Shown here in pieces: positions 23,553-39,802 of a DNA stretch of 64,000 nt. Both the position numbers and the translations under genes were made by a program. Numbering within the stretch: the first letter of the stretch is position 1; the number at the start of each line of letters is the position of its first letter. Source of the DNA: Escherichia coli (GTDB lineage Bacteria; Pseudomonadota; Gammaproteobacteria; Enterobacterales; Enterobacteriaceae); the NCBI RefSeq assembly GCF_050920415.1, contig NZ_CP169309.1. One strand, 5' to 3'. The notes under the pieces were generated by a model that was not told the origin of the DNA, made no database searches, and saw nothing but the letters and a program-made list of their open reading frames with translations.

Positions 23553-23610
23553 GCAGATAGTAAAAAAGCGCCTTTAGGGCGCTTTTTTACATTGGTGGGT
23601 CGTGCAGGAT
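23553..23610. repeat. terminator palindrome plus 18-nt copy of the tRNA-Lys 3' end (att-like direct repeat, copy 1)
   Basis: gcagatagtaaaaaagcgcctttagggcgcttttttacat followed by tggtgggtcgtgcaggat, identical to the first 18 nt of the lysV complement at 39727. Confidence 0.6.
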
Positions 23611-23707
23611 GACTCGCTTCGCTCGCCCTTCGGGCCGTCGCCGCGAGCGGCTCCGTTGTTTCGCTGCGCTCAACTCGAACCTGCTGCAGGTTCGAATCTT
23701 TGAGTAT

Positions 23708-23765
23708 CGCAGATAGCAAAAAAGCGCCTTTAGGGCGCTTTTTTACATTGGTGGGTCGTGCAGAA
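23708..23765. repeat. second tandem copy of the terminator/att-like repeat (island-proximal boundary)
   Basis: gcagatagcaaaaaagcgcctttagggcgcttttttacat followed by tggtgggtcgtgcag (15 nt of the tRNA-Lys 3' end); near-identical to copy 1, about 155 bp away. Confidence 0.6.
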
Positions 23766-34281: not shown

Positions 34282-34616
34282 AGCCTGTACTGGCAATTGT
34301 TCCGGCCTGCGCTTTGCGATCCGTCCTTCCAGAAAATCACTTGCCACCTTTTATGGGTCATTGTATCGTTGCGCCGCGTCTGCAAAATCAGGCGTCGGGA
34401 TTGGTCTCCCGGTTATAACTCGTTGACGGCATATGACATTTCTGTGTCATTTCTGTGCCGTGCGTTCGGCTGCACTTCTATGGTGGGGCCGGGTGGGGGC
34501 GTTGAAAGACGCGCCGGTTCCCAACGAGACCGGTAAGACCAACTCCGTCCGGTTCCACCACCCGTAAGATTGGTCTCTTCAGTGGTGGAAAATATATTCT
34601 CGTTGGAGGCCACATT

Positions 34617-35078
34617 ATGGCTGTTATTTCTGTTCATAAAGACGATTTACTTACCATCCCCTTCAGTGCCGCTACTGATTTCACCGATCTGGCTGCTCAC
34701 TGCGATCGCTTCGCCCAGACCCTGATCGAATGCCACAATCCTGCGCTAAAAATGGCGCTCTGTGGCAGGCTTAATACCTGCCTTGCACTGTTGCGGCCCA
34801 CGCTGAACGAGCCGATCCCGCCGCATCTGATTGACGGTTTTATTACGAATGATTTTCCCGATGTTTCACCCGGTTTTGAACCTGATGCAGAATCACTCTG
34901 CGATTACTGCCTGGCGCTGACACAGATACTGAATGGTCACTCACTGTTACCTGAAACCGAAACCACGCTGACCGGGCTGCTGTGCGAGCTGGTCTGGTAT
35001 TTTGCTGACAGTCTGAAAGCCCCGCACTGGATACGTACCGCTGACGGCGTACAGGTTATCGACGGGAGGCCAGCATGA
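34617..35078 (+). CDS. hypothetical protein, 153 aa, translationally coupled to the Ner-like gene
   Basis: Intact ORF; stop overlaps the next gene start (ATGA); no recognisable domain. Confidence 0.45.
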   Translation: MAVISVHKDDLLTIPFSAATDFTDLAAHCDRFAQTLIECHNPALKMALCGRLNTCLALLRPTLNEPIPPHLIDGFITNDFPDVSPGFEPDAESLCDYCLALTQILNGHSLLPETETTLTGLLCELVWYFADSLKAPHWIRTADGVQVIDGRPA

Positions 35079-35329
35079 TGCAGCCGGACTGGCATCCCGC
35101 TGATATTATCGCGGGACTGAGAAAACGGGGGACATCGCTGGCTAAGGTGTCCCGCAGCGCGGGACTGGCGTCCGCCACGCTGGCAAACGCGTTGACCCGT
35201 TCGTGGCCGCGCGGCGAAAAACTCATTGCGGATGCGCTGGAAACATCACCGGAAATTATCTGGCCCTCCAGATATTTCGATAATCAGGGCAACCGCATTG
35301 TAAGACTTATGCGAGAGCGGCGCTCCTGA
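35075..35329 (+). CDS. Ner/Nlp-family small DNA-binding protein
   Basis: 84 aa; DWHPADIIAGLRKRGTSLAKVSRSAGLASATLANAL resembles the Mu Ner / E. coli Nlp (SfsB) HTH family. Confidence 0.7.
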   Translation: MMQPDWHPADIIAGLRKRGTSLAKVSRSAGLASATLANALTRSWPRGEKLIADALETSPEIIWPSRYFDNQGNRIVRLMRERRS

Positions 35330-35365
35330 TGGCAGAAGCGTCAGATACAAGGTTACGGTAAAATA

Positions 35366-35409
35366 TCTCCCGGCTCTCTGCCTGCTTCTGCTGGCAGAGA
35401 GCCGGGAGA
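35366..35409 (+). terminator. strong stem-loop downstream of the Ner-like gene (17-bp perfect stem, no U-tract)
   Basis: tctcccggctctctgcc / ggcagagagccgggaga inverted repeat with about a 10-nt loop. Confidence 0.4.
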
Positions 35410-36219
35410 AGACAAGCGAAGCGCGGCAGTTTTTCAGTCACGAAGTAAGCAAACAATCTTTTAAACGCAAAAAACGTTTTTTCTTTCTGCGCCAGAAATA
35501 ACGGTGTAATCTCCCTCCTGCACTATGCCTTCGGGCACCCTTTGGCTTCATGGTCTGCAAGAAGCCCCTGATTTATCAGGACGACCAGCCCTTGCTACCG
35601 GTACGACCTCCGCAATACCGGAACGCGAAAGCGTTTGAGGCGAAGTAATTACACACCGGACAGCCCCATCGTCATCGTTTTACCGCAACGGCCTTCACTG
35701 GCTGCAAGGTTTCTCTTTGCCGGAATTTCTCCGGCCTGCTTATCCCCTGCTGATGACCAGCGCCTTTTACATGACGGGCTGCGGCCTGCATTGCCGTCAG
35801 GCTTTGCTGCCGCGTGACCGTTAATCTACCAGACTGTTAATTTTCGAATACTGCACCAGAAACGCAATGTTTACCCCTTGCACCAGACGAGGCGTCACTT
35901 TGATCGCGTCAGCGAAAAAGCAAAGTGACGCCGCACAACTCACCGCCGCAAGCCGCGCCAGTTCTGGCCTGCGCCCTGTTTCCGCCGTCTGACATGCCCT
36001 TTGGGGCCGTTGTCAGCTCAGAGTAAAGGAGAAAAAGATCGATACCGAGGGGGGCACGACGCCCCGGAGACACCCCTGCTTCGTCAGGCAGTCTGTACTG
36101 CGTACAGCCTGAAACTCCCTAAACCTCAACAAACTGCCACTCCGGCGTGAAGGTATCGTTCTGGCGCAGCCAAAAAGCACACGCCGGAGACTGTTTGTTT
36201 TTGTTGTCAGGGGAGAGTC

Positions 36220-37104
36220 ATGAGCAAATTAAGCAGTGAAATGAAGGCGCTGGCGAAGAAAGCGGGCGGCAGCTTCAAAACGGTGAATGATCGTATTCAT
36301 GCCACGAAGCGGTTCAGCCAGCATTTACGCGAACTGAATATCCAGATCCAGCGGGTGGAGCAGATCAAAGTTCGCCATATCGAATGCTACATTCAGGAGC
36401 GGCTGGAGCAGGATATTGGTTTACGCACGCTGCAAAACGAAATGGCGGCGCTGCGCTCCGTACTGAGACTGGCGGGACGCCGACAGGTGGTGGAGCATCC
36501 GCGCCTGACCAATAAGGCGCTGGGGCTGTCAGGCGCTTCGCGCAACGGCACGCGCCGCGCCATTACGCCGGAACATTATGAAAAAGTGATGGAGAGCGCC
36601 CGTGCACAGGATGCGGGGCTGGCGGCAGCGGTGGAGATTGCGCGGCTGATGGGATTACGCTCGCAGGAGGCGGTACAGAGTTCACAGTCGCTGAAAACGT
36701 GGCTGAAAGCCATTTCCCGCGGCGAAACCCGGCTGAAAGTGGTGTTTGGCACCAAAGGCGGGCGTCCACGTTACACAACGATCCTGGACGCTGGTGCAGT
36801 CAGAAAGGCGGTGGAAAACGCGTTACCGATCGCCAGACAGCGCAATGGCAGGCTGATCGACAGGCCTGACCTCAAAACAGCGCTGGAGAGCTGGCACAAA
36901 CAGGCCATTAAGGCGGGACTGAAGGGGGAATTTTCCCCGCACTCACTGCGTTATGCATGGGCACAGGACGCGATCCGTTATTATCTGGCGCAGGGATTCA
37001 GCGAAAAAGAATCCCTGGCGCTGACGGCAACGGATCTGGGCCACGGCGACGGTCGCGGCCGCTGGGTGAAACAGGTGTACGGCTACCGCTGGAAGGAGGA
37101 ATAA
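36220..37104 (+). CDS. tyrosine recombinase (phage integrase family)-like protein, 294 aa
   Basis: Catalytic-residue pattern consistent with tyrosine recombinases: GLRSQEA (box I Arg), HSLRYAWAQ (HxLR), C-terminal VYGYRW (Tyr). Confidence 0.6.
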   Translation: MSKLSSEMKALAKKAGGSFKTVNDRIHATKRFSQHLRELNIQIQRVEQIKVRHIECYIQERLEQDIGLRTLQNEMAALRSVLRLAGRRQVVEHPRLTNKALGLSGASRNGTRRAITPEHYEKVMESARAQDAGLAAAVEIARLMGLRSQEAVQSSQSLKTWLKAISRGETRLKVVFGTKGGRPRYTTILDAGAVRKAVENALPIARQRNGRLIDRPDLKTALESWHKQAIKAGLKGEFSPHSLRYAWAQDAIRYYLAQGFSEKESLALTATDLGHGDGRGRWVKQVYGYRWKEE

Positions 37105-37429
37105 CTGAATTCATGAATGGCGCAAAATAGTACGTTATTGTGTAATGACAGCAATCAGTCTGGCGCAGGGACCGGATGAAATAAAACAACCGGATACCTG
37201 CCGTTATCACTTAACAATATAGTGATAATATTGTTACTGTATGGCGAGTAAATATCAATAACCCAGACCTTCCTGCTTCATCAGTGTGTTTTTCTGGAAT
37301 ATTATAGTGATTACCCCTGTAATCACTCGAAACGTTCCCTATTGATAACAGGTGTTTTAATCGTTTTTACCGATACCACAGGACTGGGAAAATGTTAAAA
37401 TGCCAATTCACCAGAATTTCACATTAATT

Positions 37430-37920
37430 CTGGCGCAGGATTATATCTGAATAATTCTCTCCATGTTTTCCTGCATCCTGTGACATATATTGTATGCTCA
37501 CAGAATGTCTCATGATTTTATAAAAAATGCTGCGACAGTTTTTGACATCATTACCTGCTACATATAGATTAACAATCTTCGGTGCTTCATGTTGTTTTTT
37601 GCACTTTGTGATCATTATCAGGTGGTTAAAATACAATCTGGTGCAGACTGTCATGGCGCATTTCCAAATAAACTGGTTGCGCCAGAAAGGGAAAGGGTCA
37701 TAAAGGTTAAGGGGCAATAAGGGTAACAGCGCCTGACCGGAAAGGGCGGAAAACTAAAGGGCCAGAAACTGGCGCAGTCCTGAGTATTTTAAATCGCAGG
37801 ATGCTGGTGTAGATATCGGCTAATCCGAAATGGTGCAGGATTTTATCTCTGCGTATCTGGTGCGGTTCTTAAAGGTTGCAGGATATATTTTCATGATCAG
37901 GTTGTGGTGCAGATATTTTT
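37430..37920. repeat. array of iteron-like direct repeats (consensus about TGGTGCAGGATnTTATCT)
   Basis: ctggcgcaggattatatctg, tggtgcagactg, cgcaggatgctggtgtagatatcg, ggtgcaggattttatctctg, ggttgcaggatatatttt, ggtgcagatatttttg within about 500 bp of AT-rich ORF-poor DNA. Confidence 0.4.
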
Positions 37921-37972
37921 GCGTATTAATTGTTTTTTCCGTGAAATTATCGCTTATTGATAGATTTCCACC

Positions 37973-37998
37973 TGTTTTGATTTGCATGCAAATCAAAA
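37973..37998. promoter_or_regulatory. perfect 26-bp palindrome (candidate protein-binding site)
   Basis: gttttgatttgcatgcaaatcaaaac is its own reverse complement; a second dyad (aaattattcac-tg-gtgaataattt) lies at about 38045..38068. Confidence 0.4.
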
Positions 37999-38249
37999 CG
38001 GTCAGTTTCCTATTAATAAGGCGTTAATTAATAGGTTTTTACCCAAAATTATTCACTGGTGAATAATTTCGTACTATTTCCAATTAATAATAACAAACAC
38101 AATGGCAATACCTCTCAATACAAAAAAGCAGATCCCCGTCAATCAGGATCTGCTTTTCCATTTTTACAGAATTACATTATTTCTGACTCAGGCAGGCCTG
38201 TGTCACCAGGTATGGCTGATAACGGCTATTTCTGTTGCCATATGGAGCA

Positions 38250-39461
38250 CTATATTGCCCTTACAGTCACAGATGCCTCACTGATCTTCTGCCCCCACCA
38301 ATTCATCAGTTCCACACGCTGAACCAGGTAAACTGCGCGGTTGTAGGCAACACGTGTTGGATTTTCATCAATATGTGACAAAACTGCTTCCACCGCATCC
38401 GGCATAAATCCGGCTTCATGCAGCGCCGTACTGCCCAGCGCGCGGAAACCATGTGAAACCAACTCGCCGCCGTAACCCATCCGCCATAATGCCTTGTTGA
38501 CCGTCTCACTGTGCATTGGCTGGCTGCGTTTAACCCTGCCGGGAAAGACATACAGCGAATGCTCACTTAATGGCTTAAGCTGCGCCAATACCGACATTGC
38601 CTGTGGTGACAGTGGCACCTGGTGCTCACGCTTCATCTTCATGCGTTCAGCCGGGATAGTCCAGAGCCGTTTATCCATATCAATCTCACACCACATCGTT
38701 CCTGCGGCCTCAGCAGGGCGTACCAGGGTCAGGAGTTGCCATTGCAGCAATAACCGCGTCATGGGGCTTAAACAGGTTGTGTGGACCCGCTGCATGAGTT
38801 CCGGCAGACGCTCCGGGCGAATGGTCGGCATATGCTGCTTTTTCGGCTTCACGAATGCTTCATCAATGGTTGACGCCGGGTTTGCATCCAGCAGGCCTGT
38901 ATTAATGGCGAATTTCATGACCTCATTAATTCGCTGCGTCAGCCGGTGCAACGTCTCCAGCGTGCCACGCGCCCGTACAGGCTCCAGGGCGGAAATAAGC
39001 GTGTGCGCTTTCAGTTCTGTCACTGGCATCTGCCCAATGGCCGGGAACACATCGCGCTCCAGCGATCTCCAGATATCGTCTGCATAATCTTCGGAGATTC
39101 TGGTTTTCTTCACCGCGAACCATCTCGTCGCCACATTAATAAACAGGCTCTCCACCGCCAGCCGCTCCCGTTCGGCTTCCTCCTGCTCCAGTTTCTTTGG
39201 GTCAATACCTTTCACAAGCAGGGAAAGCTGTTCGGCGTGTAATGCGCGTGCGCTGGCAAGCGACATGGCAGGATAATGCCCGAGAGTGATGGTGGTTCGC
39301 GCAGTCGAATTTGGCCGTTTGTAACGAAAACGCCAGATCTTTTTACCGCTGGTTCTGACAAACAGGGTCAGCCCCTGCCCGTCAAACAGTTCGTAATCTT
39401 TATCAGAGGGTTTTGCTTTCTGGACTTCGCAAGCTGATAACGGACGGGTAAGAACAGCCAT
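38250..39461 (-). CDS. int: P4-type (tRNA-associated) tyrosine integrase
   Basis: 403 aa; N-terminal LSACEVQKAKPSDKDYELFDGQGLTLFV... block typical of P4-like integrases; gene ends 265 bp from the 3' end of tRNA-Lys. Confidence 0.9.
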   Translation of the reverse strand: MAVLTRPLSACEVQKAKPSDKDYELFDGQGLTLFVRTSGKKIWRFRYKRPNSTARTTITLGHYPAMSLASARALHAEQLSLLVKGIDPKKLEQEEAERERLAVESLFINVATRWFAVKKTRISEDYADDIWRSLERDVFPAIGQMPVTELKAHTLISALEPVRARGTLETLHRLTQRINEVMKFAINTGLLDANPASTIDEAFVKPKKQHMPTIRPERLPELMQRVHTTCLSPMTRLLLQWQLLTLVRPAEAAGTMWCEIDMDKRLWTIPAERMKMKREHQVPLSPQAMSVLAQLKPLSEHSLYVFPGRVKRSQPMHSETVNKALWRMGYGGELVSHGFRALGSTALHEAGFMPDAVEAVLSHIDENPTRVAYNRAVYLVQRVELMNWWGQKISEASVTVRAI

Positions 39462-39726: not shown

Positions 39727-39802
39727 TGGTGGGTCGTGCAGGATTCGAACCTGCGACCAATTGATTAAAAGTCAACTGCTCTACCAACTGAGCTAACGAC
39801 CC
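39727..39802 (-). tRNA. lysV: tRNA-Lys (anticodon UUU)
   Basis: Reverse complement reads GGGTCGTTAGCTCAGTTGGTAGAGCAGTTGACTTTTAATCAATTGGTCGCAGGTTCGAATCCTGCACGACCCACCA. Confidence 0.95.

What the first reader, a model, noticed from the sequence alone, without database searches (positions are those of the whole stretch)
35330..36219. About 890-bp ORF-free, GC-normal stretch with strong stem-loops
Unlike the AT-rich spacers elsewhere in the island, this stretch has backbone-like GC but no ORF over 60 codons. It contains a 17-bp perfect stem-loop (35366-35409) and further dyads (ggcgtcactttg...caaagtgacgcc; ctgtactgcgtacag). It could be a decayed gene or a non-coding RNA locus.
Basis: seen in the sequence. 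Interest (0 to 1): 0.4.

Follow-up and report, generated by a model that had tools for sequence, protein, structure and literature searches.

The report
Structured control region of island relaxase
The 890-bp gene-free stretch is not a dead gene but a conserved, heavily folded non-coding unit (it contains the catalogued EFASI RNA motif) that always sits directly upstream of an integrase-like gene of the family used by some mobilisable genomic islands as their DNA-transfer enzyme, so it is probably the island's transfer origin plus a regulatory RNA.

Summary

It is not a decayed gene. No gap ORF hits Pfam, only 11% of indels are multiples of three, and stems change by compensatory substitutions.

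Rfam places a full-length EFASI RNA (RF02957, 99 bits against a cut-off of 51) at 36034-36162. EFASI is only the 3' sixth of the conserved unit. Fifty-five non-redundant relatives share homologous sequence from about 35370 to the start codon at 36220.

The other conserved parts are:
- a 20-bp covarying hairpin
- a pseudoknotted domain that is STAXI-like but fails Rfam's STAXI model
- an almost invariant imperfect hairpin
- a 12-bp inverted repeat conserved in sequence even on distant plasmids
- a covarying helix with a U-rich tail just before the gene's ribosome-binding site

The downstream 294-aa "integrase" matches Pfam PF12835 (199.5 bits). An SGI1-type MpsA homologue fetched here also passes PF12835 (43.5 bits), and published work uses PF12835 as the signature for MpsA, SGI1's atypical relaxase. 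All 91 EFASI-like loci with enough downstream sequence carry this gene 54-144 nt away.

Best reading (about 0.5): this is a mobilisation region, oriT plus a structured RNA, organised like SGI1's oriT / sgm-sRNA / mpsA module. No nucleotide homology to SGI1 was detected.

The parts
35366..35409 (+). H1: a 20-bp hairpin just after the stop codon of the HTH gene, followed by the conserved sequence AGACAAGCGAAGCGCGGCAG. It has no U-run on the + strand.
   Evidence: Arms confirmed. In 26 distinct relatives 97.3% of cells are paired. Positions 35373-35381 change by compensatory substitutions. U.G pairs are many and A.C pairs are few, which points to the + strand.
35463..35488 (+). Terminator-like hairpin plus T-run. 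In this copy it is weak (AAACG/CGTTT then TTTCTTTCT). In many relatives it is a strong 7-11-bp GC stem (GGGGAAACTCA..TGAGTTTCCCC TTTCTG).
   Evidence: Read from the alignments. The consensus scan did not call it. Function is inferred.
35487..35497 (+). Box CTGCGCCAGAA. It is the exact reverse complement of TTCTGGCGCAG at 36159-36169.
   Evidence: Inverted repeat I2 and direct repeat D17. Related CTGCRCCAG boxes recur at other positions in relatives. Role unknown.
35505..35510 (+). A -10-like hexamer, TGTAAT. Relatives have TATAAT, CATAGT, CGCAGT or TGTAAG at the same position. The -35 is weak. This is a candidate promoter for a transcript starting near 35515.
   Evidence: Alignment columns. 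The consensus promoter scan did not detect it. Inferred only.
35518..35648 (+). STAXI-like 5' domain of five hairpins plus a pseudoknot. Hairpins: a 35527-29/35534-36 (UUCG loop); b 35544-49/35561-66; c 35567-71/35576-80; d 35598-603/35616-21; e 35622-26/35631-35 (GAAA loop). Pseudoknot: CCUC 35607-10 with GAGG 35637-40.
   Evidence: Covariance model R1 found 52 distinct matches at E<1e-6. On that alignment 95.6% of cells are paired against 86.1% in shuffles. Nineteen pairs change on both sides against 10.2 in shuffles (0 of 500 shuffles reach this). Slid controls give 33-47%. The pseudoknot was not part of the model and is 94% paired with two covarying pairs. G.U+U.G = 38 against A.C+C.A = 9. 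R1 matches in L031 and L092 overlap Rfam STAXI matches at 41 bits.
35748..35762 (+). Small hairpin GCUG..CAGC, followed by CCUUUUAC.
   Evidence: 93.7% of cells paired in 46 sequences, with 2 covarying pairs. The terminator scan also picked it up, weakly.
35772..35823 (+). Central imperfect hairpin, ACGGGCUGCGGCCUGCA..GGC.UUUGCUGCCGCGUGACCGU. Within the gap it is as conserved as EFASI; I did not compare it with the flanking genes. Candidate core of a protein-recognised site (oriT).
   Evidence: Conservation peak of about 1.55 bits per position. Its three component helices are 92-99% paired (95.1% for the whole structure counted) but almost invariant, including a U.G pair present in 46 of 46 sequences. 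Covariation therefore says little either way.
35851..35887 (+). Two direct CTGCACCAGA boxes at 35851-35860 and 35878-35887. A third, partial copy at 35828-35834 lies inside a 27-nt insertion found only in this sequence type.
   Evidence: GCACCAGA is nearly invariant at 35853-35860. Role unknown.
35891..35932 (+). Perfect 12-bp inverted repeat, GGCGTCACTTTG / CAAAGTGACGCC, around a variable 18-nt loop. Candidate relaxase-binding repeat of an oriT.
   Evidence: The helix is 92.9% paired, 5 of its 12 pairs never vary, and covariation is seen only at the two ends of the stem. The arm sequence is conserved even upstream of 50-58%-identical genes on Pantoea and Salmonella plasmids.
35989..36016 (+). 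Hairpin CUGACA(.GCCC....GGGC...)UGUCAG.
   Evidence: Recovered in separate folds of five of the divergent representatives (window, L006, L012, L041, L049). An equivalent hairpin is present in L135.
36025..36032 (+). Nearly invariant Shine-Dalgarno-like AAAGGAGA with no start codon after it in this copy. It is complementary to UCUCC at 35510-35514.
   Evidence: Alignments. AAGGAG is also present in L132 and L135. The pairing cannot be tested because both sides are invariant.
36034..36162 (+). EFASI RNA motif (Rfam RF02957), full length.
   Evidence: 99.2 bits against a gathering score of 51.2, E = 3.6e-20, model positions 1-133 of 133. The same motif was found in all 16 loci fetched by then that carry the gene. 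My own model R2 scores the window at 143.6 bits.
36140..36206 (+). Helix T: 36140-36148 pairs with 36181-36189. It encloses the 3' strand of EFASI stem P1, so the two form a pseudoknot. A U-rich tail (ACUGUUUGUUUUUGUUG) follows. Terminator-like, and outside the Rfam model.
   Evidence: Nine pairs are formed in at least 50 of 51 sequences each. Compensatory changes occur at 36141/36188 (U-A in 23, C-G in 28) and 36148/36181 (U-A in 36, C-G in 15). Most copies have a T-rich tail, though in a few it is short or weak. The consensus scan did not call it; its rule allows loops of only 3-8 nt, and this loop is 30 nt.
36220..37104 (+). 294-aa gene annotated 'integrase domain-containing protein': Phage_int_SAM_2 plus Integrase_1 (PF12835). 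Probable MOB_M / MpsA-type relaxase.
   Evidence: PF12835 at 199.5 bits and PF12834 at 137.4 bits. BLASTP E = 2e-6 to an SGI1-type MpsA homologue that also hits PF12835. PF12835 is the signature used for MpsA in PMC10484663.

Best explanation
The stretch is the cis-acting mobilisation region of a tRNA-integrated, probably mobilisable, genomic island. It lies directly upstream of a tyrosine-recombinase-like (MOB_M / MpsA-type, PF12835) relaxase gene.

Proposed working:
1. The near-invariant central hairpin (35772-35823) and the sequence-conserved 12-bp inverted repeat (35891-35932) make up the origin of transfer. The downstream protein recognises and nicks it.
2. The same region is transcribed on the + strand, from about 35515, into a structured RNA of roughly 0.7 kb. 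Its 5' part is the STAXI-like pseudoknot domain. Its 3' part is EFASI.
3. The RNA ends at the helix-T / U-tract element (36140-36206), just before the relaxase ribosome-binding site. That element either limits read-through into the relaxase gene or defines the 3' end of a stable RNA needed for transfer.

This organisation mirrors SGI1: promoter, then a promoter-proximal terminator-like hairpin, then oriT, then the sgm-sRNA core, then mpsA.

Shown here: the conservation, the structures, the strand, the obligate linkage to the gene, and the gene's family.

Inferred only: oriT function, the nick site, the promoter, termination, and what the RNA does.
For: 1. EFASI is present and complete.
2. All 91 EFASI-like loci with at least 250 nt downstream carry the PF12835 gene 54-144 nt away on the same strand. 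Most of these loci came from a metagenome scan that used a DNA pattern in EFASI alone.
3. The pairing persists on plasmids where the protein is only 46-58% identical. My EFASI model scores 77.8, 31.3 and 31.2 bits at 75-110 nt upstream of the ATG.
4. The gene is PF12835 at 199.5 bits. An SGI1-type MpsA homologue fetched here also passes PF12835 and aligns at E = 2e-6, sharing the GTKGGR motif. PMC10484663 uses PF12835 as the signature for the MpsA-type relaxase.
5. bioRxiv 10.64898/2026.01.13.699239 reports that MOB_M relaxases are common in chromosomes, that 96% lie next to an integrase, and that they are often annotated as integrases. Here a P4-type integrase lies 1.1 kb downstream.
6. In SGI1 the oriT is a GC-rich 125-bp segment with 7-, 12- and 19-bp inverted repeats about 275 nt upstream of mpsA. 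It lies inside a roughly 720-nt primary transcript whose 3' end, just upstream of mpsA, is an RNA essential for transfer. A terminator-like hairpin sits near that transcript's promoter (PMC6414798, PMC9299015). The window has the same order of parts over the same length.
7. Homologous sequence spans the whole gap in at least 90% of 55 non-redundant relatives.
8. The inverted repeat and the central hairpin are conserved in sequence, as protein-binding sites are. The 5' domain, H1 and helix T covary, as structures do.
9. The wobble-pair asymmetry puts the structure on the + strand.
10. UUCG and GAAA tetraloops and conserved U-rich tails favour an RNA component.
11. RT-qPCR detected EFASI and STAXI RNA in vesicles of an STEC strain (PMC12370729).
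12. Forty-two of the 56 plasmids that carry a homologue are typed 'non-mobilizable'. One of them, a Pantoea plasmid, has MPF_G genes but no typed relaxase.
Against: - No experiment bears on this element. oriT activity, nicking and transfer are untested.
- My EFASI and STAXI-like covariance models find nothing above noise in an SGI1-type mob region. The parallel with oriT_SGI1 and sgm-sRNA is one of layout, not homology.
- The window protein carries an N-terminal SAM-like domain (PF12834). The literature says MpsA, MobK and TcpM lack a core-binding domain (PMC8152469). No mpsB-like gene follows it.
- The published MOB_M profile could not be run.
- The consensus scans found no promoter in the gap and did not call helix T as a terminator.
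- Covariation cannot separate RNA from single-stranded DNA of the transferred strand.
- Which element holds the nick site is a guess. EFASI itself, with its invariant unpaired ACCUCAACA, is an equally good candidate.
Confidence: 0.5

Rival explanations
1. RNA only. The gap encodes one long structured leader, or separate small RNAs (a STAXI-like RNA and EFASI). These regulate the downstream recombinase gene in cis by attenuation at helix T, or act in trans, as Rfam suggests for EFASI. The region has no origin-of-transfer role.
For: - Strong Rfam EFASI match.
- Rfam's text says EFASI likely functions as a trans-acting small RNA (quoted in PMC12370729).
- Covariation, pseudoknots, UUCG and GAAA loops, and a terminator-like 3' end.
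- Fixed short distance to the start codon.
Against: - The near-invariant central hairpin and the 12-bp inverted repeat are conserved in sequence rather than by compensation, even across distant plasmids. That fits protein recognition of DNA.
- The partner gene belongs to a relaxase-type family, and a relaxase needs a cognate oriT nearby.
- A 100% cis linkage argues against a purely trans-acting small RNA.
Confidence: 0.2
2. DNA only. The hairpins work as single-stranded DNA of the transferred strand, or as extruded cruciforms. They serve as oriT, single-strand initiation sites or single-strand promoters of a leading region. Any transcript is incidental.
For: - Weinberg et al. 2010 raised the single-stranded-DNA option for STAXI because its neighbours are ssb, topoisomerase, antirestriction and integrase genes (PMC2864571). 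From my own knowledge, that is typical leading-region content.
- Strand-specific G.T wobble pairs are compatible with a transferred strand.
- The partner gene is relaxase-like.
Against: - UUCG and GNRA loops stabilise RNA rather than DNA, as argued in PMC2864571.
- The conserved U/T-rich tail after helix T and the -10-like element have no obvious role in DNA.
- EFASI and STAXI were amplified from cDNA (PMC12370729).
- SGI1 shows that an RNA from exactly this position can be essential (PMC9299015).
Confidence: 0.15
3. Recombination site. The 294-aa protein is a genuine site-specific recombinase, acting as a resolvase, an invertase or a second integrase. The repeats in the gap (the CTGCRCCAG boxes and the 35487 / 36159 inverted pair) are its recombination or arm-type sites.
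For: - The protein has both a SAM-like core-binding domain and a catalytic domain.
- Repeated boxes, and an exact 11-nt inverted pair 661 nt apart.
- pemIK and HigA cassettes are inserted at the 5' edge of the unit in some relatives.
Against: - All 68 full-length E. coli matches are collinear single pieces, so no inverted variant is seen.
- The 35487 box is absent from that position in other genera.
- There is no close pair of inverted core sites with a 6-8-bp spacer.
- The P4-type integrase already accounts for integration into the tRNA gene.
Confidence: 0.08
4. Decayed protein-coding gene.
For: Backbone-like GC content and a length typical of a gene. NCBI's automatic annotation (PGAP) calls small hypothetical ORFs here in some genomes.
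Against: - No Pfam hit for any gap ORF.
- The annotated ORFs sit at different places and are absent in this genome.
- Only 11% of indels are multiples of three.
- Compensatory changes in stems.
- Rfam EFASI match.
Confidence: 0.02

Closest known systems
EFASI RNA motif (Rfam RF02957; Weinberg et al. 2017, NAR, PMC5737381)
   Same: Window 36034-36162 is a full-length, high-scoring member. It sits upstream of an 'integrase' gene and a few hundred nt downstream of a STAXI-like element, exactly as the family description says.
   Different: - The family has no known function and is described as a probable trans-acting small RNA.
- Here the conserved unit is about 850 nt, not 133.
- A covarying 3' helix (36140-48 / 36181-89) forms a pseudoknot with stem P1 and carries a U-rich tail.
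- The partner gene is always PF12835.
- EFASI-like elements also lie upstream of 46-58%-identical genes on Pantoea, Klebsiella and Salmonella plasmids.
STAXI RNA motif (Rfam RF01728; Weinberg et al. 2010, PMC2864571)
   Same: - Repeated pseudoknotted hairpins with UUCG loops.
- Near c4 antisense RNAs and integrase genes.
- Upstream of EFASI.
- The homologous positions in L031 and L092 pass the STAXI gathering score (41 bits against 40.5) and overlap my R1 matches.
   Different: - The window copy gives no STAXI match even at E<=10 on 171 nt.
- A classical STAXI (L065, 68.8 bits) is not found by my model.
- The window domain is therefore a diverged relative, not a demonstrable member.
SGI1 mobilisation module: oriT_SGI1, sgm-sRNA and mpsA-mpsB (Kiss et al. 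2019, PMC6414798; Nagy et al. 2021, PMC9299015)
   Same: - The same order of parts over about 0.7 kb: a terminator-like hairpin near a promoter, a GC-rich segment with several inverted repeats, a structured RNA domain ending just upstream of the gene, then a PF12835 tyrosine-recombinase-like gene.
- The two proteins share the Pfam family and align at E = 2e-6.
   Different: - No nucleotide or covariance-model similarity.
- There is no mpsB. Instead, an N-terminal SAM-like domain is fused to the protein.
- SGI1 integrates at trmE and depends on an IncA/C helper plasmid. This island sits at a tRNA-Lys gene with a P4-type integrase, and no helper is known.
MOB_M (tyrosine-recombinase-like) relaxases: TcpM of pCW3, MobK of pIGRK, MpsA of SGI1
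   Same: - Catalytic-domain family.
- Adjacent to an integrase.
- Annotated as an integrase.
- Plasmid homologues are typed 'non-mobilizable', and one sits with MPF_G genes.
   Different: - Activity is untested.
- The published MOB_M profile was not available to run.
- The three characterised members are said to lack a core-binding domain, whereas this protein has one.
P1 / P4-type C4 (CI) antisense-RNA immunity module
   Same: A c4-a1b1 / isrK / C4 set lies 0.8-1 kb upstream on the same strand (34363-34565), so the gap belongs to a P4-like island end.
   Different: It lies outside the finding. I found no specific C4 complementarity in the gap beyond what shuffled sequence gives.

Membership tests
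EFASI RNA (Rfam RF02957) | Match to the family covariance model at or above the gathering score, over the full length of the model | tested here: met
   99.2 bits against 51.2, model positions 1-133 of 133, E = 3.6e-20.
EFASI RNA (Rfam RF02957) | Genomic setting: Enterobacteriaceae, upstream of an integrase gene, downstream of STAXI | tested here: met
   The window is 100% identical to an E. coli chromosome. The integrase-domain gene starts 57 nt downstream. A STAXI-like domain lies 385 nt upstream. In 91 of 91 loci the gene follows.
EFASI RNA (Rfam RF02957) | Expressed as an RNA | not testable with these tools
   The only evidence is RT-qPCR of a different EFASI copy in STEC vesicles (PMC12370729).
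STAXI RNA (Rfam RF01728) | Match to the family covariance model | tested here: not met
   No STAXI match in 35300-36260 or 35505-35675 at E<=10. The homologous sites in L031 and L092 just pass, at 41.2 and 41.1 bits against 40.5.
STAXI RNA (Rfam RF01728) | Pseudoknot unit repeated two or three times, with UUCG loops, near c4 RNA and integrase genes | tested here: inconclusive
   One covarying pseudoknot (35607-10 / 35637-40), a UUCG hairpin, and a second possible pseudoknot (GGUC 35552-55 with GACC 35583-86) that I did not count.
MOB_M / MpsA-type relaxase | Catalytic domain of the PF12835 family, which an SGI1-type MpsA homologue also matches | tested here: met
   PF12835 at 199.5 bits. An SGI1-type MpsA homologue scores 43.5 bits on the same model and aligns to the window protein at E = 2e-6.
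MOB_M / MpsA-type relaxase | Score above the cut-off (84) of the MOB_M profile of bioRxiv 10.64898/2026.01.13.699239 | not testable with these tools
   The profile is not available here.
MOB_M / MpsA-type relaxase | Located next to an integrase in a chromosomal island (96% of members) | tested here: met
   A P4-type integrase lies at 38250-39461, and tRNA-Lys at 39730.
MOB_M / MpsA-type relaxase | No core-binding domain of its own, as in MpsA, MobK and TcpM | tested here: not met
   Residues 1-91 match Phage_int_SAM_2 at 137 bits.
MOB_M / MpsA-type relaxase | Nicks a cognate oriT and is required for conjugative mobilisation | not testable with these tools
   Needs mating and cleavage assays.
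SGI1-type oriT / sgm-sRNA | Sequence or structure homology to oriT_SGI1 or to the sgm-sRNA core | tested here: not met
   Models R1 and R2 give only noise on the SGI1-type locus L131 (at most 9.6 bits, E of about 1). The blastn search with the gap sequence found only a 13-nt chance match in L131.
SGI1-type oriT / sgm-sRNA | Layout: promoter-proximal hairpin, a segment rich in inverted repeats, a structured RNA ending at the relaxase gene, all within about 0.7 kb | tested here: met
   See the parts list, compared.

The most novel reading that the evidence does not exclude
EFASI, together with the 12-bp inverted repeat and central hairpin upstream of it and in many islands a STAXI-type domain, is the cognate oriT / helper-RNA module of a large, overlooked clade of tyrosine-recombinase-type (MOB_M) relaxases. 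If so, two orphan Rfam motifs acquire a function. Many tRNA-associated E. coli islands now regarded as immobile, which here carry T6SS, Rhs, toxin-antitoxin and defence cargo, would be mobilisable elements whose transfer depends on a structured RNA, as in SGI1.
Probability: 0.4. Interest if true: 0.65.

Novelty: new member of a known kind. Interest (0 to 1): 0.45.

Why it matters
EFASI and STAXI have been in Rfam for years with no assigned function. This analysis ties EFASI, in 91 of 91 loci with sequence downstream, to a gene of the family that SGI1 uses as its atypical relaxase, and it shows that EFASI is only one end of an ~850-bp conserved unit.

That gives a concrete, testable proposal for what the motifs do: they form an origin of transfer plus an RNA required for, or limiting, mobilisation.

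It also bears on how tRNA-linked islands carrying T6SS, Rhs and defence genes move between Enterobacterales, and on why plasmids carrying this gene are typed as non-mobilisable.

For annotation, the practical point is that this stretch should not be called a pseudogene or be filled with small hypothetical ORFs.

Tried and rejected
1. Decayed gene. Rejected on ORF, Pfam, indel and covariation evidence.
2. Membership in STAXI for the window copy. Rfam gave no match at two sensitivities, so I call it only a STAXI-like relative.
3. Homology of EFASI or the STAXI-like domain to the SGI1 sgm-sRNA / oriT region. I obtained an SGI1-type locus through a knock-out primer arm. Both covariance models gave noise on it.
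4. C4 antisense RNA targeting the gap. Duplex energies were no better than against shuffled sequence.
5. Invertible segment between the 35487 and 36159 inverted boxes. All 68 full-length E. coli matches are collinear, and the 5' box is not conserved in position in other genera.
6. RNA guide for the recombinase. The gap is 94.5% identical between islands at tRNA-Lys and tRNA-Asn, so it does not track the integration site.
7. Small ORF starting after the AAGGAG motif. There is no start codon in this copy, and relatives have indels inside EFASI.
8. RNAalifold on plain MAFFT alignments of mixed sequence groups. Hairpins of different lengths were misaligned and the consensus structures were poor. 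I replaced it with covariance-model alignment and block-wise counts.
9. The viral-contig scan found one contig-edge hit only. The phage collection gave one unannotated 3-kb record.
10. The solved-structure sequence search for the protein found nothing.
Full report
**Observation.** Window 35330-36219 lies between the stop codon of an 84-aa helix-turn-helix gene (35075-35329; Pfam HTH_35, SfsB/Ner-like) and the ATG of a 294-aa gene at 36220. No ORF in it exceeds 60 codons. Its GC is 0.49-0.59. The stretch folds far better than dinucleotide shuffles on either strand, z = -5.0 and -6.2.

**Origin and setting.** The window is 100% identical to the chromosome of E. coli MFDS1022581, where nothing is annotated in this interval. 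The order on the + strand is:
- tssF and tssG
- Rfam c4-a1b1 / isrK / C4 antisense RNA (34363-34565), behind a promoter-like site at 34341-34369
- a 153-aa ORF of unknown function
- the HTH gene
- the gap
- the 294-aa gene
- a 1.1-kb AT-rich spacer
- a P4-type integrase on the - strand
- tRNA-Lys and three tRNA-Val genes

The same end-module lies next to tRNA-Asn or tRNA-Phe in other E. coli, with different cargo (Rhs, Abi, ATPases). It is also found in Escherichia whittamii, E. albertii, Serratia, Klebsiella indica, Cedecea, Pseudocitrobacter, Salmonella arizonae and Erwinia.

**What is catalogued.** Rfam places a complete EFASI RNA at 36034-36162, scoring 99.2 bits against a gathering score of 51.2. 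EFASI stands for "Enterobacteriaceae, Frequently Around STAXI and Integrases". Its function is unknown. Rfam's text says it probably acts in trans and lies several hundred bp downstream of STAXI and upstream of integrase genes (quoted in PMC12370729).

**The conserved unit is much larger than EFASI.** I collected relatives in three ways: through the 294-aa protein, through a metagenome scan with an EFASI-only DNA pattern, and from E. coli genomes. That gave 55 non-redundant 950-nt upstream regions. Homologous sequence is present in at least 90% of them from about 35370 to 36219. Conservation peaks at 35770-35822 and across EFASI. The region is mosaic at its 5' edge. Some relatives carry a HigA or a pemIK cassette there. 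Others start only at about 35690.

**It is not coding.**
- The ten longest ORF translations have no Pfam match even at E<=1.
- Stop-free stretches are not conserved in length or strand.
- Only 11% of 1117 indel events are multiples of three.

**Structures found, from 5' to 3':**

1. **H1, 35366-35409.** 97% of cells are paired in 26 distinct sequences. There are many compensatory changes and many U.G pairs.
2. **Terminator-like hairpin and -10-like hexamer.** A hairpin plus T-run lies around 35463-35488. It is weak here and strong in many relatives. A -10-like hexamer follows at 35505-35510. Both are read from the alignments and were not called by the consensus scan.
3. **The 130-nt domain, 35518-35648.**
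   - I modelled it with a covariance model (R1), which found 52 distinct matches.
   - On that alignment, five hairpins plus a pseudoknot that was not in the model are 95.6% paired, against 86.1% in shuffles.
   - Nineteen pairs change on both sides against 10.2 in shuffles (0 of 500 shuffles reach this). Slid controls give 33-47%.
   - The alignment is fitted to the model, so these numbers lean towards the structure. The pseudoknot is independent of that bias.
4. **Central imperfect hairpin (35772-35823) and 12-bp inverted repeat (35891-35932).** Both are 92-99% paired but nearly invariant, so covariation is uninformative there.
5. **Helix T, 36140-36148 with 36181-36189.**
   - It lies beyond the Rfam model. 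Each of its nine pairs is formed in at least 50 of 51 sequences, and two positions covary.
   - It encloses the 3' strand of EFASI stem P1, which makes a pseudoknot.
   - In most copies a U-rich tail follows it, 15-40 nt before the start codon.

**Strand.** Within the supported helices, G.U+U.G outnumber A.C+C.A by 38 to 9. H1 and the central hairpin carry frequent or invariant U.G pairs. The + strand is therefore the structured strand. It is the same strand as the flanking genes.

**Relation to STAXI.**
- Rfam STAXI matches in L031 and L092 (41 bits against a threshold of 40.5) fall on the same places as my R1 matches.
- L065 has a classical STAXI 490 nt upstream of its EFASI.
- The window copy does not match STAXI at E<=10, even when only 171 nt are searched.
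- R1 does not find the classical STAXI of L065.
- I therefore call the window domain a diverged STAXI-like element and do not file it as a member.

**The partner gene.**
- The 294-aa protein is Phage_int_SAM_2 plus Integrase_1 (PF12835, 199.5 bits).
- By inspection it keeps the tyrosine-recombinase residues: GLR, GTKGGR, HSLR, and a C-terminal YGY.
- PF12835 is the signature that PMC10484663 uses for the "INT_DTR_like" class, that is, MpsA, the atypical tyrosine-recombinase-type relaxase of Salmonella Genomic Island 1.
- I recovered an SGI1-type mob region through a knock-out primer arm printed in the supplement of PMC9299015. Its MpsA homologue also passes PF12835 (43.5 bits) and aligns to the window protein at E = 2e-6.
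- A 2026 preprint (10.64898/2026.01.13.699239) reports that such MOB_M relaxases are the most common relaxases in chromosomes, are missed by standard profiles, are often annotated as integrases, and in 96% of cases lie next to an integrase. This gene fits that description.

**Linkage.**
- All 91 EFASI-like loci with at least 250 nt of downstream sequence carry this gene 54-144 nt away on the same strand.
- tblastn finds homologues on 56 plasmids, 42 of them typed "non-mobilizable".
- In three plasmids that I fetched, the protein is 46-58% identical, the gene is preceded by 0.9-1.5 kb without annotation, and my EFASI model (R2) hits 75-110 nt upstream of the ATG. One of them, a Pantoea plasmid, has MPF_G genes but no typed relaxase.
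- In two of these three plasmids (Salmonella L135 and Pantoea L132), the arms of the 12-bp inverted repeat (GCGTCACTTTG / CAAAGTGACGC) and the AAGGAG motif just 5' of EFASI are conserved in sequence. The STAXI-like domain is not found in any of the three.
- The universal core is therefore the inverted repeat, EFASI and the PF12835 gene.

**Mechanism proposed.** SGI1 is the precedent.
- Its oriT is a 125-bp GC-rich segment with 7-, 12- and 19-bp inverted repeats about 275 nt upstream of mpsA.
- That oriT lies inside a roughly 720-nt primary transcript. The 3' 277 nt of the transcript, between oriT and mpsA, mature into sgm-sRNA, which is essential for transfer.
- A terminator-like hairpin near the transcript's promoter modulates its amount (PMC6414798, PMC9299015).

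The window shows the same order of parts over the same length. I therefore propose three things:
- The central hairpin and the inverted repeat are the oriT recognised by the downstream protein.
- The region is transcribed on the + strand into a structured RNA with a STAXI-like 5' domain and an EFASI 3' domain.
- The helix-T / U-tract element sets the RNA's 3' end, limits read-through into the relaxase gene, or both.

All the functional steps are inferences. The parallel with SGI1 is one of layout only: neither covariance model detects anything in the SGI1-type region. The protein also differs from MpsA in carrying its own N-terminal DNA-binding-type domain and in lacking an mpsB partner.

**Rivals.** They are an RNA-only element, a DNA-only element, a recombination site and a decayed gene.
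- RNA and transferred-strand DNA cannot be separated by covariation.
- UUCG and GAAA loops, the U-rich tails and the RT-qPCR detection of EFASI and STAXI favour some RNA role.
- Sequence-level conservation of the inverted repeat, and the family of the partner gene, favour a DNA site.
- Inversion is unlikely, since all 68 full-length E. coli matches are collinear.

**Verdict.** The finding is real and is a non-coding element. Part of it is an ordinary member of a catalogued motif (EFASI). Three points go beyond the catalogue entry: the extent of the unit, the 3' pseudoknot / terminator-like extension, and the invariable pairing with a MOB_M-type gene. Together they suggest a testable function. 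I rate it a new member of a known kind, of moderate interest.

Noticed in passing
window 34341-34565 (+): A P1/P4-type antisense-RNA immunity set. A promoter-like site (TTGCCA-17-TATCGT) is followed by Rfam c4-a1b1 (43 bits in the window, just below its 46.7-bit gathering score, but above it in relatives L003, L004, L006 and L010), isrK and C4 antisense RNA. Next come a 153-aa ORF with no family and an SfsB/Ner-like HTH gene. The set travels with the EFASI unit in most relatives.
   Followed up: partly
L009 2360-3459; L031 4233-5338 (-); L007 2841-3925: A pemI/pemK (MazEF-type) toxin-antitoxin pair is flanked by two copies of the STAXI-like domain. The upstream copy is a distinct variant whose pseudoknot is CCUU/AAGG. 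This occurs in three unrelated contexts: an E. whittamii island, a metagenome contig, and a Salmonella Infantis pESI-like plasmid. It looks like a cassette that brings its own STAXI-type leader, or like insertion targeted to that spot.
   Followed up: partly
L004 4002-4473 (E. coli O145 strains): A HigA-family antitoxin gene is inserted between the H1 hairpin and the promoter-like region of the unit. In the same strains the PF12835 gene is frameshifted.
   Followed up: no
window 37105-38249: A 1.1-kb AT-rich stretch (GC 0.34-0.44) with few ORFs lies between the relaxase-like gene and the convergent P4-type integrase. Nothing is annotated there in the source genome.
   Followed up: no
window 35828-35852: An insertion of about 27 nt, found only in this sequence type (window, L002, L061), duplicates the CTGCACCAGA box. 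The window copy has then lost two bases of the first box.
   Followed up: no
window 35510-35514 and 36028-36032; 35487-35497 and 36159-36169: Two possible long-range pairings bracket the unit: UCUCC with GGAGA, and an exact 11-nt CUGCGCCAGAA with UUCUGGCGCAG. Both sides are nearly invariant, so covariation cannot test them. Two Salmonella sequences (L008, L087) whose sequence upstream of about 35700 is unrelated to the unit have AGAGA instead of GGAGA.
   Followed up: partly
L132 (Pantoea agglomerans plasmid pROTS050421_D): This plasmid is typed non-mobilizable but carries MPF_G mating-pair genes. Its only relaxase candidate is a PF12835 gene with an EFASI-like element 110 nt upstream.
   Followed up: partly
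window 23593-23718 (-): Rfam RtT RNA match (51.6 bits against a gathering score of 45) elsewhere in the window.
   Followed up: no
L007 4263-4874: In the pESI-like plasmid the unit is cut off after the central conserved block by a transposase-like ORF. No EFASI and no PF12835 gene follows, so this copy is a remnant.
   Followed up: no
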